NCBI GenBank assembly: GCA_964564965.1
Contig: CAZMDT010000001.1
Span: forward strand, 13,237-46,160
DNA: 32,924 nt
From: an uncultured Planctomycetaceae bacterium
Lineage (GTDB): Bacteria; Planctomycetota; Phycisphaerae; SM23-33
Reading direction: 5' to 3'
The notes under the pieces are model-generated. The model searched no databases and was not told the origin of the DNA. It was given only the letters and a program-made list of their open reading frames with translations. Position numbers and translations under genes: made by a program. The first letter of the stretch is position 1, and each line of letters starts with the position of its first letter. Shown here piece after piece: positions 11,409 to 13,445 of the stretch.

Positions 11409-13445
11409 CTATCGCTCGGCGCCGGCGAAGCCGAGGTACTCGTCCAGCCAGTCGTCGGTGCGGAGGACGCCCTTCCGCTGGCGGAGCGCCATCCGCTCGG
11501 CGTGGTGCTGGGCGAGACCGAACACCCGCCGCGTCAGCAGCGACGACAGCTCGCGCTCCGTCCGCCCGAACCGCCGCCTCAGCGCCGCCGACAGGTGCGG
11601 GGCGTGCCGCACGACCAGCTCGTCGGCGAGGCTGACGATGGCCTGGCAGCTTCCGGGGTCGCCCTGGCGTCCGGCCCGGCCGAAAAGCTGCCGGTCGATC
11701 CGCCCCGCCTCGTGGCGCTCGGTGGCGATGACGTGCAGCCCGCCGAGGTCGGCCACGCCGCGCCCGAGCTTGATGTCGGTGCCGCGCCCGGCCATGTTGG
11801 TGGCCACGGTGATCCGTCCCTGCTGCCCGGCGGCGGCGACGATCTGGGCCTCCTCGGCGTGGCGGACGGCGTTGAGCACCTGGTGCTCCAGCTCGCGCTC
11901 GGCGAGCAGGCGGCTGAGGTGCTCGCTGGCGCGGACGCTGCGGGTGCCGACGAGCACGGGCCGGCCGGTGGCGTGGAGGCGGGCGATCTCCTCGACGACG
12001 GCGCGCCACTTGGGCGCTTCGGAGGCGAAGACGCGGTCCGGGCGTCGCTCGCGGACGCACGGGCGGTTGGTGGGCACCACCACGACCGGCAGGCGGTAGA
12101 TCTGCCAGAACTCGCGCCGGGCCTCGGCGGCGGTGCCCGTCATGCCCGCCAGCCGGCGGTACAAGCGGAAGAACCGCTGGAAGCTCACCCGGGCGTACGT
12201 GTCCTTCGGCGGGTTGACGGCAATGCCTTCCTTGGCCTCGACGGCCTGGTGGAGCCCGTCGCGCCATTCGCGGTCCGGCATCAGCCGACCCGTGAACTCG
12301 TCCACGATGCACACCGCCTCCTCGTGAAGCACGTACTGCTTGTCGCGGAGGTAGAACTCATCGGCGGTGAGGGCCTGGACGACAAGCTCCTCGCCTCGCC
12401 GGGCCCCGCCCCAGACGCCGCCCAGCCCGCCCGACATCTCGGCGATGCGCCGCTGGCCCGCGGGCGTCAGCTCCACCTCGCGGTAGCGGGCGTTCACGCG
12501 GTAGTGTGCGCCGGGCGCCAGCTCGTTCGCCACGGCGGCGGCCTGCTCGAACGCCGCCACCTGCTCGGGGTTCGGGGCGTCGCCCGAGATGATCAGCGGC
12601 GTGACGGCCTCGTCGATGAGGATCGAGTCGGCCTCGTCCACGATGGCGTACTGCAGGCCGCGCTGCACCAGCCGCCCCACCCCGCCCCGCGCGCCCTCGG
12701 CCAGGCCCGCCAGCAGCACCTCCGGCAGCGACCGCATCCGCCCCAGCGCCAGGCGGTCGCGCAGAAAGTCCGCCGTCACCTCCTTGTTGGTGCAGTAGGT
12801 GATGTCCGCCTGGTAGGCCTCGCGGCGCTGGGCGGGCTCCATGCCCTGCTCGAGGTGCGCCACCCGCAGGCCGCAAAAGCGGTAGATGGGGCGCATCCAC
12901 TCGGCGTCGCGCCGGGCGAGGTAGTCGTTGAAGGTGATGACGTGGCACCCGCGCCCGCGCCAGCCGGCCACCGCCGCCGGGAGCGTGGCGGTGAGGGTCT
13001 TGCCCTCGCCGGTGGCCATTTCGGCGATGGCGCCGGCGTGGAGGGCGAAGGCGCCGGCGACCTGGACGGGGAAGTGGGTCTCGCCGATGCGCCGGCGGGC
13101 GACCTCGCGGACGAGGGCGAAGGCGCGGTCGAGGTCGTCCGCGCGGTCGCGTCCGCGGCGGAAGCGGGCGCGGAACGCCTCGGCCTGGCCGCGCAGGGCG
13201 GCCTCGCCCATGTCGCGAAAGGCCCTCTCCAGCGCGAGCACGCGCCGGGCCCGGCGGAGGAAGCTCCCGGTGCGGACGGACAGGCGCTTGGCGGCGCCGG
13301 CGGCGCTCAGCCAGAGAGCGTCCAGGCCTTTGGGCAGCTCATCGCGCGCTCGCGGCTCGGCGAGCATCCGCCAGGTTGCGCTGGCCACGGCCGTCACGAA
13401 CGGCTGAACCTCCGCAGCAGCAGTTGCCGCAGGCTGCGCCACCAC
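11409..13445 (-). CDS. SecA-like ATPase, C-terminally truncated paralogue (NBD1 - preprotein cross-linking domain - NBD2 - stub of helical scaffold)
   Basis: ORF 11409..13445. It shows strong collinear identity to SecA motifs: Walker A ([17 protein letters not shown]), [28 protein letters not shown], DEAD-like ([21 protein letters not shown]), a PPXD segment, [42 protein letters not shown] and [24 protein letters not shown]. The protein ends about 70 aa after NBD2. By comparison with E. coli SecA (recalled sequence), the wing domain, two-helix finger and C-terminal tail are absent. The start is GTG 13445 (a 52-nt overlap with the upstream gene) or ATG 13367. Confidence 0.85.
   Translation of the reverse strand: [678 protein letters not shown]

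What the first reader, a model, noticed from the sequence alone, without database searches (positions are those of the whole stretch)
11409..13445. SecA paralogue that keeps the motor and the preprotein cross-linking domain but ends just after NBD2
The protein aligns by eye with E. coli SecA from the N-terminal helix through Walker A, the DEAD-like box, PPXD and NBD2 ([24 protein letters not shown]). It then has only about 70 more residues (..[34 protein letters not shown]), which correspond to the first helix of the scaffold domain. The helical wing domain, the two-helix finger that inserts into SecY and the C-terminal tail are missing. It also has an N-terminal extension of about 40 aa. Canonical SecYEG-coupled translocation is therefore doubtful, and the motor may have been recruited to the neighbouring M50/HlyD proteins. 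From memory, short SecA2 entries exist in planctomycete annotations, but I know of no functional study. This recollection needs verification.
Basis: partly seen in the sequence, partly recalled or inferred. Interest (0 to 1): 0.75.

Follow-up and report, generated by a model that had tools for sequence, protein, structure and literature searches.

The report
Wingless SecA motor of giant-protein exporter
This is a real, conserved short version of the protein-export motor SecA that sits in a five-gene membrane machine already noticed in 2015 but never studied, and comparison with other genomes suggests the machine exports very large surface proteins that carry an unusual 'LEPR-XLL' start signal.

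Summary
ORF 11409..13445(-) encodes a SecA motor (NBD1, PPXD, NBD2, intact ATPase motifs). It stops midway along the long scaffold helix and lacks the wing, the two-helix finger and the C-tail. The likely start is GTG 13397 (662 aa), which overlaps the stop of the upstream gene. The truncation is not an artefact: 137 of the top 150 cluster representatives are 600-720 aa, and a terminator follows the stop.

The gene ends an operon: MFP, DUF3467, GAF-MFP, PqqD/M50-MFP, short SecA. This order is conserved in 80 Phycisphaerae/Planctomycetota loci. Kamneva et al. 2015 already described this family and locus bioinformatically, including Phycisphaera mikurensis. I found no functional study.

New here:
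- DUF3467 and a PqqD-like domain are conserved parts of the module.
- The short clade has its own N-terminal motif, an NBD1 insertion and a C-terminal Φ-x-F-[A/S]-G tail.
- In Alpha- and Gammaproteobacteria and some Phycisphaerae, the module lies next to giant proteins (up to ~12,900 aa) with the N-terminal LEPR-XLL motif, often with TolC.

Best reading: the ATPase of a type-I-like exporter for LEPR-XLL proteins. No such substrate lies in this window. All function is inferred.

The parts
11409..13397 (-). Short SecA (secondary SecA_DEAD protein), 662 aa from the probable GTG start. The longest ORF extends to 13445 (678 aa). It has NBD1, PPXD, NBD2 and about two thirds of the long scaffold helix.
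13320..13370 (-). N-terminal extension motif specific to the short clade (…TWRMLA…[10 protein letters not shown]). It is absent from canonical SecA.
12996..13010 (-). Walker A motif GEGKT, invariant.
   Evidence: present in 119 of 137 diverse representatives
12627..12638 (-). DEAD box (Walker B), invariant.
   Evidence: DExD present in 132 of 137 representatives
12678..12737 (-). Insertion of about 20 aa in NBD1. It is present in the short clade, absent in canonical SecA, and modelled with low confidence.
11421..11450 (-). Conserved C-terminal tail [10 protein letters not shown]. The family-wide form is Φ-x-F-[A/S/T/G]-G, three residues from the C-terminus. It is a candidate docking motif.
11364..11396 (-). 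Intrinsic-terminator-like hairpin and T-run, 12 nt after the stop codon.
13394..15592 (-). PqqD-like (RRE) cytoplasmic domain, then an M50/site-2-protease-like polytopic core, then a periplasmic HlyD-like region (732 aa). The stop overlaps the SecA start.
14948..14962 (-). HEFGH zinc-binding motif of the M50 core, conserved in at least 95% of 57 orthologs.
14636..14662 (-). NxxPxxxxD (NGNPLLRYD), the second zinc-ligand motif of S2P-type proteases, conserved.
15284..15478 (-). PqqD-like domain (res 39-103), one of the most conserved regions of the M50 protein.
   Evidence: PGAP names orthologs 'PqqD family'
15605..17491 (-). Cytoplasmic GAF-containing region, one TM helix (res 364-382), and a periplasmic HlyD/MFP domain (628 aa).
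17527..17895 (-). DUF3467 protein (122 aa). It is cytoplasmic, has no TM helix and is very conserved.
17906..18808 (-). Membrane-fusion/periplasmic adaptor protein (RND_mfp above cutoff). The probable ATG start is at 18808; the ORF runs to 18889.
18862..18889 (-). Weak sigma-70-like promoter match upstream of the operon (9 of 12).

Best explanation
The short SecA is the cytoplasmic ATPase of a five-gene, envelope-spanning export and processing machine built like a type I secretion system. The usual ABC transporter is replaced by a wingless SecA motor plus an M50-type polytopic membrane protein.

Proposed steps, all inferred:
1. A substrate lacking a classical Sec signal is recognised in the cytoplasm through its N-terminal LEPR-XLL leader. 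Recognition is by the PqqD-like domain of the M50 protein and/or by the PPXD clamp of the short SecA. DUF3467 (SapC in some lineages) acts as an adaptor or chaperone.
2. The DEAD motor threads the unfolded chain. The motor lacks the two-helix finger and wing, so it cannot work on SecY in the known way. It probably docks to the GAF or M50 cytoplasmic domains through its clade-specific N-terminal motif and its Φ-x-F-[A/S]-G C-terminal tail.
3. The M50 core provides the inner-membrane passage and probably cleaves the leader.
4. The three HlyD-type periplasmic domains and a TolC-like protein carry the chain to the outside. The TolC-like gene is in the locus in many lineages but lies elsewhere in this genome.

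The substrates are probably LEPR-XLL proteins, often giant adhesin-like proteins. In this genome they would be encoded outside the window.

What is shown: domain content, motif integrity, conservation and gene linkage.
For: Motor intact, scaffold and wing absent.

Operon structure: the genes are tightly packed with a GTGA start/stop overlap, a terminator follows SecA, and the next gene has its own promoter.

Synteny in 80 Phycisphaerae/Planctomycetota loci: M50-MFP was found in 72, GAF-MFP in 58, MFP in 46 and DUF3467 in 44. The shortfalls are mostly at contig ends. No other conserved flanking gene was found.

The same module occurs in distant lineages, with OEP/TolC in the locus in L081, L082, L083, L084, L086, L087, L032 and the Methylosinus plasmid.

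The HExxH and NxxPxxxxD motifs and the PqqD-like domain are the best-conserved parts of the M50 protein. NF041824, a RiPP leader protease family, matches end to end, though below its cutoff.

Substrate link:
- All 6 intact alphaproteobacterial plasmid modules have a giant gene (8,148 to 12,918 aa) directly upstream on the same strand, carrying an N-terminal LEPR-XLL motif. NF012209 scores 28-34 bits against a cutoff of 17, PGAP names two of them as LEPR-XLL, and two have the motif in frame.
- All 3 gammaproteobacterial loci have LEPR-XLL proteins of 3,549-3,628 aa in an OEP, MFP, giant operon divergent from the GAF, M50, short SecA operon.
- In Phycisphaerae, 8 of the 10 LEPR-type ORFs found in 638 kb of flank are the gene immediately next to the module, with a gap of at most 562 bp. 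By my arithmetic the binomial P is about 1e-5 if placement were uniform. This is not corrected for relatedness.
- The LEPR N-termini lack a Sec-type hydrophobic core. Their maximum 12-aa hydropathy is 0.5-1.8, against 2.6-2.7 for Sec signals in this window.

Literature:
- Kamneva 2015 proposed the ATPase co-option.
- Studholme 2004 proposed the motif as a novel export signal.
- The giant LEPRxLL proteins of Chlorobium chlorochromatii sit with SapC and TolC, and a horizontally acquired secA is co-expressed with them.
- Giant Omnitrophota proteins carry wingless SecA modules.
Against: There is no experiment of any kind for this family.

The window itself contains no LEPR-XLL gene and no TolC-like gene. 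The substrate link is therefore imported from other genomes.

Only about 10% of Phycisphaerae loci show the adjacency, and LEPR-type proteins are numerous in Planctomycetes, so some adjacency could be chance.

M50 proteases are not known to form protein-conducting channels.

The Pfam M50 match is below the gathering score (19.4 against 27.2).

The DUF3467 model was poor and gave no fold match, so its role is a guess.

No interaction between SecA and its partners was tested.

Some giant LEPR-XLL proteins elsewhere also have C-terminal RTX regions and might use ordinary ABC-type T1SS.
Confidence: 0.6

Rival explanations
1. An accessory SecA2-type motor that still uses the housekeeping SecYEG channel for a special set of substrates. 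The M50 protein trims the leader afterwards, and the MFP/TolC parts take over from the periplasm in a two-step route.
For: The motor and PPXD clamp are canonical. The foldseek hits include SecA2 structures. Kamneva et al. place the clade as sister to actinobacterial SecA2.
Against: The two-helix finger, wing domain and C-tail are entirely missing. All NCBIfam SecA2 models score far below their cutoffs. No secY2 or asp genes are nearby. The LEPR leaders lack the hydrophobic core needed for the SecY lateral gate. The tight operon and translational coupling point to the M50 and MFP partners.
Confidence: 0.12
2. An export and maturation system for small ribosomal peptides (RiPP or bacteriocin-like). 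The PqqD-like domain binds a leader peptide and the M50 site removes it. The giant neighbours are unrelated.
For: PqqD scores above the Pfam cutoff. There is an end-to-end match to the daptide leader protease family NF041824 and weak matches to YydH/LiaK and NHLP-system HlyD models.
Against: No conserved small ORF lies in or beside the module in 80 loci. A SecA/PPXD polypeptide clamp is not needed for short peptides. The repeated, same-strand adjacency to giant LEPR-XLL genes across three lineages needs another explanation.
Confidence: 0.1
3. Not an exporter but a signal-controlled intramembrane proteolysis device. The GAF domain senses a ligand, and the SecA-like motor unfolds or extracts substrates and feeds them to the M50 protease, as the AAA+ module does in FtsH.
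For: A GAF domain and an intact S2P-type active site are present. Removing the C-terminal regulatory region would leave a free-running unfoldase-like motor. This draws on established knowledge of SecA-N68, whose structure 5k9t appears.
Against: Three membrane-fusion-type periplasmic domains and in-locus TolC genes in many lineages are hallmarks of an envelope-spanning conduit. So is the adjacency to surface or adhesin-like giants.
Confidence: 0.1
4. A decaying or mis-assembled secA: a pseudogene, or a frameshift hiding the C-terminal half.
For: None beyond the short length.
Against: The same end point occurs in all 80 related loci and in 137 of the top 150 cluster representatives, down to 40% identity. 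The last 25 residues are among the most conserved. The ATPase motifs are intact. A terminator and the next gene's promoter follow directly.
Confidence: 0.01

Closest known systems
Secondary SecA_DEAD domain proteins and their conserved locus (Kamneva, Poudel & Ward 2015, PLoS One, PMC4452313)
   Same: SecA_DEAD, PPXD and NBD2 without the wing/scaffold domain. The neighbours are M50-like, GAF and HlyD/biotin-lipoyl proteins. The paper's taxa include Planctomycetes, with Phycisphaera mikurensis PSMK_16490/16500 listed explicitly. It proposes the same co-option as an ATPase replacing an ABC transporter.
   Different: Nothing essential; this window is a further member. The paper does not name DUF3467, which appears only as an unnamed 'conserved hypothetical' cluster 5 at the matching position. 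It also does not mention the PqqD-like domain, the tail motif, or any link to LEPR-XLL or giant proteins.
E. coli SecA-N68 (engineered C-terminal truncation; PDB 5k9t)
   Same: It retains NBD1, PPXD and NBD2 and lacks the C-terminal regulatory and SecY-engaging parts. It is found as a structural match.
   Different: N68 is a laboratory fragment. The natural short SecA keeps most of the long scaffold helix, and it has its own N-terminal motif, an NBD1 insertion and a conserved C-terminal tail.
Accessory SecA2 of mycobacteria and Gram-positive bacteria
   Same: A second, specialised SecA paralogue beside the housekeeping one, reduced at the C-terminus.
   Different: SecA2 proteins keep the two-helix finger and work with SecY or SecY2. 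Here the whole region is absent, the SecA2 models are not met, and the partners are M50, GAF, MFP and TolC.
Type I secretion systems and peptidase-containing ABC exporters (HlyB-HlyD-TolC; PCAT)
   Same: Membrane-fusion proteins plus a TolC-like outer factor. There is a cytoplasmic ATPase and, as in PCATs, a protease that could remove an N-terminal leader. Giant adhesin-like substrates are encoded next door. SapC is an accessory in some loci, as in the Campylobacter fetus sap system.
   Different: No ABC transporter gene is present in any locus examined. The ATPase is a SecA-type DEAD motor, and the membrane component is an M50-type protein fused to an MFP domain. A 2021 review lists only ABC, RND and MFS energisers.
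Wingless SecA_DEAD/PPXD modules embedded in giant proteins of Omnitrophota and Actinobacteria (West-Roberts et al. 2023 preprint)
   Same: The SecA motor and preprotein-binding domain lack the scaffold/wing. They are associated with giant proteins and proposed to help export them.
   Different: There the motor is fused into the giant protein. Here it is a free-standing 662-aa protein in an operon with M50 and MFP genes.
LEPR-XLL / RRLxxExLExRxLLA N-terminal motif proteins (NCBIfam NF012209; Studholme et al. 2004)
   Same: This is the motif found on the large proteins adjacent to the module in other genomes. It was long suspected to be a novel export signal.
   Different: No export machinery has been assigned to the motif in the literature I could search. 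No such protein lies in this window.

Membership tests
Housekeeping SecA | DEAD motor (NBD1 + NBD2) with Walker A/B and arginine finger | tested here: met
Housekeeping SecA | Preprotein cross-linking domain | tested here: met
   PF01043, E 2e-24
Housekeeping SecA | Complete scaffold, wing domain and two-helix finger (Pfam SecA_SW) | tested here: not met
   No PF07516 hit. Canonical proteins have a median of 222 more residues.
Housekeeping SecA | Score above the NCBIfam equivalog cutoffs | tested here: not met
   646.9 against 814 (NF009538); 633.9 against 800 (TIGR00963)
Accessory SecA2 (Gram-positive / mycobacterial) | Score above the SecA2 model cutoffs | tested here: not met
   TIGR03714 514 against 930; TIGR04221 475 against 725; TIGR04397 570 against 1085; NF012136 443 against 1100
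Accessory SecA2 (Gram-positive / mycobacterial) | secY2/asp neighbours or a retained two-helix finger | tested here: not met
Secondary SecA_DEAD proteins (Kamneva 2015) | SecA_DEAD and PPXD without SecA_SW | tested here: met
Secondary SecA_DEAD proteins (Kamneva 2015) | Locus with M50-like, GAF and HlyD-type proteins | tested here: met
Secondary SecA_DEAD proteins (Kamneva 2015) | Belongs to the short clade rather than being a recent truncation of the canonical SecA | tested here: met
   137 of the top 150 representatives are 600-720 aa. The protein shares clade-specific indels and the tail motif. No formal tree was built.
Secondary SecA_DEAD proteins (Kamneva 2015) | Coexists with a full-length SecA in the same genome | not testable with these tools
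Coexistence holds in the complete genomes of PMC4452313. One MAG carries two short copies (L055 and L062).
Type I secretion system | Membrane-fusion (HlyD/MFP) protein | tested here: met
   Three MFP-type domains. TIGR01730 scores 127.8 against a cutoff of 94.9 for the 327-aa protein.
Type I secretion system | TolC-like outer-membrane factor | tested here: inconclusive
   None in this window. One is present in the locus in L032, L081-L084, L086, L087 and Methylosinus.
Type I secretion system | ABC transporter as inner-membrane energiser | tested here: not met
   None in the window or in any related locus examined.
Site-2 protease / Peptidase M50 | HExxH and NxxPxxxxD(G) motifs in a polytopic membrane core | tested here: met
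   HEFGH at res 211 and NGNPLLRYD at res 311, conserved in 57 orthologs; about 7 hydrophobic segments.
Site-2 protease / Peptidase M50 | Pfam gathering score | tested here: not met
   19.4 against 27.2 bits
PqqD / RiPP recognition element | Pfam PqqD above the gathering score | tested here: met
   24.5 against 23.4 bits, res 39-103. PGAP names orthologs 'PqqD family'.
SecB-like chaperone (considered for DUF3467) | Sequence or fold similarity to SecB | tested here: not met
   hhalign probability 0.2%. The PDB profile search gave nothing relevant. The model has pLDDT 61 and no fold match, so the fold part is inconclusive.

The most novel reading that the evidence does not exclude
The short-SecA, PqqD-M50-MFP, GAF-MFP and MFP module, with DUF3467 or SapC and a TolC-like protein, is a distinct and widespread secretion system. 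It is a type-I-like conduit powered by a wingless SecA motor instead of an ABC transporter. It recognises, and probably cleaves, the N-terminal LEPR-XLL signal and exports some of the largest bacterial proteins known. This would assign machinery to an export motif that has been orphaned since 2004. It would also explain why wingless SecA modules recur with giant proteins.
Probability: 0.5. Interest if true: 0.88.

Novelty: new member of a known kind. Interest (0 to 1): 0.64.

Why it matters
SecA is the textbook motor of the general secretion pathway. This family shows the motor stripped of everything that engages SecY and built into a different envelope-spanning machine. The family is large, old, spread across at least five phyla, and untouched experimentally ten years after it was first noticed.

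If the link found here to LEPR-XLL proteins holds, three loose ends come together:
- the function of the short SecA locus;
- the export route of the planctomycete 'LExRxLL' surface proteins;
- the secretion of giant adhesin-like proteins of 3,500 to over 30,000 aa, including the symbiosis proteins of Chlorochromatium.

It also gives clear experiments in cultivable carriers. A practical point is that reference annotation currently calls these proteins 'prepilin peptidase', 'DEAD/DEAH box helicase', 'SecA' or 'hypothetical', which hides the family.

Tried and rejected
1. Frameshift or pseudogene: rejected by the conserved end point, the conserved tail and the terminator.

2. DUF3467 as a SecB-like chaperone: the strand-strand-strand-strand-helix order of a low-confidence model suggested it. 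The idea is left open but unsupported.

3. The downstream PATR/PEP-CTERM protein (9534-11222) as substrate: rejected. It has its own promoter and an ordinary Sec signal, and it is not conserved next to the module.

4. Additional conserved genes around the module in 80 loci: none found. The apparent extra clusters were antisense shadow ORFs.

5. A LEPR-type gene or TolC in the window: none, even with a loose pattern.

6. Extending beyond the window through the source contig: the exact-protein look-up of P0121 was not on record.

7. Loci where the short SecA seemed alone (L016, L025, L041): the neighbours are unrelated housekeeping genes. L032 and L043 have LEPR/dockerin proteins and, in L032, an OEP gene. 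L047 has MFP, DUF3467 and SecA.

8. Literature searches for functional work on the family, on DUF3467 and on a motif-machinery link found only Kamneva 2015 and incidental mentions. The library covers open-access papers and bioRxiv only.
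Full report

Yes. The minus-strand ORF 11409..13445 (678 aa) is present. Pfam finds SecA_DEAD (E 2.8e-103), the preprotein cross-linking domain (2e-24) and the SecA P-loop/NBD2 domain (5.5e-58). It finds no wing/scaffold (PF07516) or SEC-C domain.

All NCBIfam SecA and SecA2 models match strongly but far below their curated cutoffs, and only up to about position 606 of 789. 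Against PDB sequences, residues 66-668 align with B. subtilis SecA 23-604 (E about 7e-147). In a mixed alignment of short and canonical proteins, canonical SecAs continue for a median of 222 residues beyond this protein's end. This protein stops about 13 residues after the RKxLLxxDD motif, roughly two thirds along the long scaffold helix.

An AlphaFold model (mean pLDDT 69) places NBD1, NBD2 and a terminal helix at 636-670 with good confidence. The first 48 residues, an NBD1 insertion and the last 20 residues are uncertain. Its best structural matches are SecA structures, including the engineered E. coli truncation SecA-N68.

- The likely start is the GTG at 13397, which overlaps the TGA of the upstream gene (GTGA). 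This gives 662 aa, the modal length of homologs. The N-terminal extension is therefore about 27 aa.
- About 80 residues, not 70, follow the GDPG motif.

The terminator claim is correct. A hairpin plus T-run begins 12 nt after the stop, followed by an 11-of-12 promoter match for the next gene.

**2. Is it a degenerate or accidental truncation?**

No. The 120 closest database proteins are 607-679 aa. All 80 related genomic loci end at the same residue. In an exhaustive search of 1.8 billion cluster representatives, 137 of the best 150 are 600-720 aa (median 663), down to 40% identity. Canonical-length SecAs appear only at the bottom of that list.

Walker A, the DEAD box and the GRxxRQG arginine-finger motif are kept in 119, 132 and 132 of 137 diverse members.

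The short clade has its own signatures, absent from canonical SecA:
- an N-terminal motif (…TWRMLA…[10 protein letters not shown] in Phycisphaerae);
- an NBD1 insertion of about 20 aa;
- a C-terminal tail, Φ-x-F-[A/S/T/G]-G. It lies within the last 16 residues in 68 of 137 representatives, and exactly three residues from the end in 55 of them. In control windows of the same proteins it occurs 9 times in 5,462.

In the window the tail reads [10 protein letters not shown], and it is nearly invariant among close relatives. A conserved but structurally unanchored tail is what a docking peptide would look like. That is an inference.

**3. Surroundings**

The gene is the last of five tightly packed same-strand genes:
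- an MFP/HlyD protein (17906-18808);
- DUF3467 (17527-17895);
- a protein with a cytoplasmic GAF region, one TM helix and a periplasmic HlyD domain (15605-17491);
- a protein with an N-terminal PqqD-like domain, an M50/site-2-protease-like polytopic core and a periplasmic HlyD-like region (13394-15592);
- the short SecA.

In 57 orthologs of the M50 protein, the best-conserved parts are the PqqD-like domain and the HEFGH and NPLLRYD zinc-site motifs. The periplasmic part is poorly conserved. The first 424 residues match the daptide leader-protease family NF041824 end to end, though below its cutoff.

The gene order is conserved across the 80 Phycisphaerae/Planctomycetota loci wherever the contig is long enough. 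No other flanking gene is conserved. The downstream PATR/PEP-CTERM gene of the window is not part of the module.

**4. What was already known**

Kamneva, Poudel and Ward (2015; PMC4452313) described 'secondary SecA_DEAD domain proteins' that lack the wing/scaffold domain. [quoted passage not shown] They proposed that the motor replaces the ABC transporter of a type-I-like system, with the M50 protein as the membrane component.

Their table lists Phycisphaera mikurensis explicitly. It also lists SapC-family proteins and an unnamed conserved hypothetical three genes from SecA, which is the position DUF3467 has here. They do not mention DUF3467, PqqD, or any substrate.

I found no functional follow-up. 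A large 2021 review of tripartite systems lists only ABC, RND and MFS energisers. They also rediscover a published, purely computational finding.

**5. A lead on the substrate**

Looking at distant members changed the picture.

Gammaproteobacteria. Three loci (Parendozoicomonas, an Oceanospirillaceae MAG and a metagenome contig) have a GAF, M50, short SecA operon. It is divergent from an OEP, MFP operon that ends in a 3,549-3,628-aa protein. Those proteins begin M…LE(L/I/V)LEERILLSADPL. This matches NCBIfam NF012209, the 'LEPR-XLL domain', above its cutoff.

Alphaproteobacterial plasmids and chromids. All six intact modules I examined have a giant gene directly upstream on the same strand, followed by DUF3467 in four of them:
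- Methylosinus, 8,847 aa, with TolC at the end of the operon;
- Mesorhizobium ciceri, 10,518 aa;
- Pontibrevibacter, 10,603 aa, which PGAP names 'LEPR-XLL domain-containing protein';
- Pseudosulfitobacter, 12,918 aa, also named LEPR-XLL, with SapC inside the operon;
- Alisedimentitalea, 8,148 aa, where the motif lies in frame just upstream of the annotated start;
- Pseudohalocynthiibacter, an unannotated ORF of about 11,500 aa crossing the record origin, beginning METYEPRLLLSAD.

Another locus has a 4,926-aa protein, then DUF3467, MFP, PqqD/M50, short SecA and MFP.

Phycisphaerae. Ten ORFs with the motif near their N-terminus occur in 638 kb of flanking sequence. Eight of them are the gene immediately next to the module, several directly after the short SecA and more than 2,300 aa long. 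If placement were uniform, I calculate a probability of about 1e-5. This does not allow for relatedness of the loci.

Nature of the signal. The motif sits 13-51 residues from the start, after a basic stretch. These N-termini have no Sec-type hydrophobic core.

Independent literature fits:
- The motif was proposed in 2004 as a novel planctomycete export signal (cited in PMC8567305).
- The giant LEPRxLL proteins of Chlorobium chlorochromatii lie with SapC and TolC genes, and a horizontally acquired 'secA' is co-expressed with them. Kamneva et al. report the short SecA in a single Chlorobi species, which they do not name in the text I could read.
- Giant Omnitrophota proteins carry wingless SecA modules thought to aid their own export.

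I found no paper that connects the motif to the short-SecA module.

**6. Most likely mechanism**

I judge it likely (about 0.8) that the short SecA is the ATPase subunit of the M50/GAF/MFP machine. I judge it somewhat better than even (about 0.5-0.6) that this machine exports LEPR-XLL proteins.

The proposed steps are leader recognition, ATP-driven threading, passage and leader cleavage at the M50 core, and transit through an MFP/TolC conduit. All are inferred from domain content and gene linkage.

Established knowledge of SecA says the two-helix finger and wing engage SecY, and that the C-terminal region restrains the ATPase, which is the N68 behaviour. The truncation therefore predicts a motor that cannot act on SecY in the known way and needs a new regulator. 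The GAF protein is the obvious candidate.

The main weakness for this particular window is that it contains no LEPR-XLL gene and no TolC gene. As with other sorting systems whose substrates are scattered, they would have to be elsewhere in the genome.

The rivals are less well supported but not excluded. They are a SecA2-like role at SecYEG, a small-peptide (RiPP) exporter, and a signal-controlled protease.

**7. Verdict**

The finding is real and correctly read. It is a new member of a family described computationally in 2015, not a new kind of thing. It remains interesting because the family is functionally unknown. The comparative evidence assembled here points to a specific, testable function that would be a notable addition to the catalogue of bacterial secretion systems.

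Noticed in passing
window 9534-11222 (-): The gene after the short SecA encodes a 562-aa protein with a Sec signal peptide, autotransporter-type beta-strand repeats (PATR/TIGR02601) and a C-terminal PEP-CTERM sorting signal (…PEP…RRRRR). It has its own strong promoter-like site at 11354-11327. It is not conserved beside the module.
   Followed up: partly
homologs P0049 and P0077; plasmid loci L090 and L096: Public annotation names short SecA proteins 'prepilin peptidase', 'DEAD/DEAH box helicase', 'preprotein translocase subunit SecA' or 'hypothetical protein'. The family clearly has no dedicated annotation model, and 'prepilin peptidase' is simply wrong.
   Followed up: partly
L055 and L062 (both from MAG JBDKRA01, Phycisphaerae 5_bin.122): One genome carries two complete copies of the module. 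L062 has a LEPR-type ORF next to it. Kamneva's table also lists two loci in Magnetococcus marinus and in Planctomyces brasiliensis.
   Followed up: no
L100 + L101 (Pseudohalocynthiibacter plasmid pRR4-35_6, NZ_CP049043.1): About 35 kb of this 62-kb plasmid is one stop-free ORF of about 11,500 aa that crosses the record origin. It is missing from the gene table I could see. It starts with a LEPR-XLL-type motif and is followed by DUF3467 and the module.
   Followed up: yes
L098 (Alisedimentitalea plasmid NZ_CP123586.1): The annotated start of the 8,148-aa 'calcium-binding protein' appears to be too far downstream. The LEPR-XLL motif (EQLEPRLLLAAD) lies in frame just upstream of the annotated Met. 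A SapC gene sits divergently upstream.
   Followed up: partly
L011, L012, L021, L031, L040: A subgroup of Phycisphaerae loci has a shorter GAF-MFP match (query residues 1-421 only). In L011, L012 and L021 the M50 match is also truncated and a gap lies before SecA. L021 (and apparently L011, L012 and L040) also has a sigma-54-type GAF/AAA+ activator-like ORF on the opposite strand upstream. This may be a variant architecture or an assembly issue.
   Followed up: no
L085 4437-5298: In one distant locus the module is preceded by a DUF7133 protein and a signal-peptidase-I-like (Peptidase_S26) gene, instead of DUF3467 or SapC.
   Followed up: no
window 1108-5538 (-): A cluster of a ThiF-family enzyme, an unannotated 554-aa protein, an amidohydrolase and a FeeM-like N-acyl amino acid synthase. 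It may be a small-molecule biosynthetic cluster unrelated to the finding.
   Followed up: no
window 21207-22016 (+) and 23010-24029 (+): Two proteins with prepilin-type N-terminal methylation motifs, downstream of a LacI-family regulator (19198-20262). This is typical planctomycete content.
   Followed up: no
window 17527-17895 (-): DUF3467 is conserved far more strongly than the membrane partners: about 63% mean column identity, with many invariant residues. It is variable only in its first ~12 residues and in one loop. That argues for a structural or adaptor role rather than a secreted product.
   Followed up: partly
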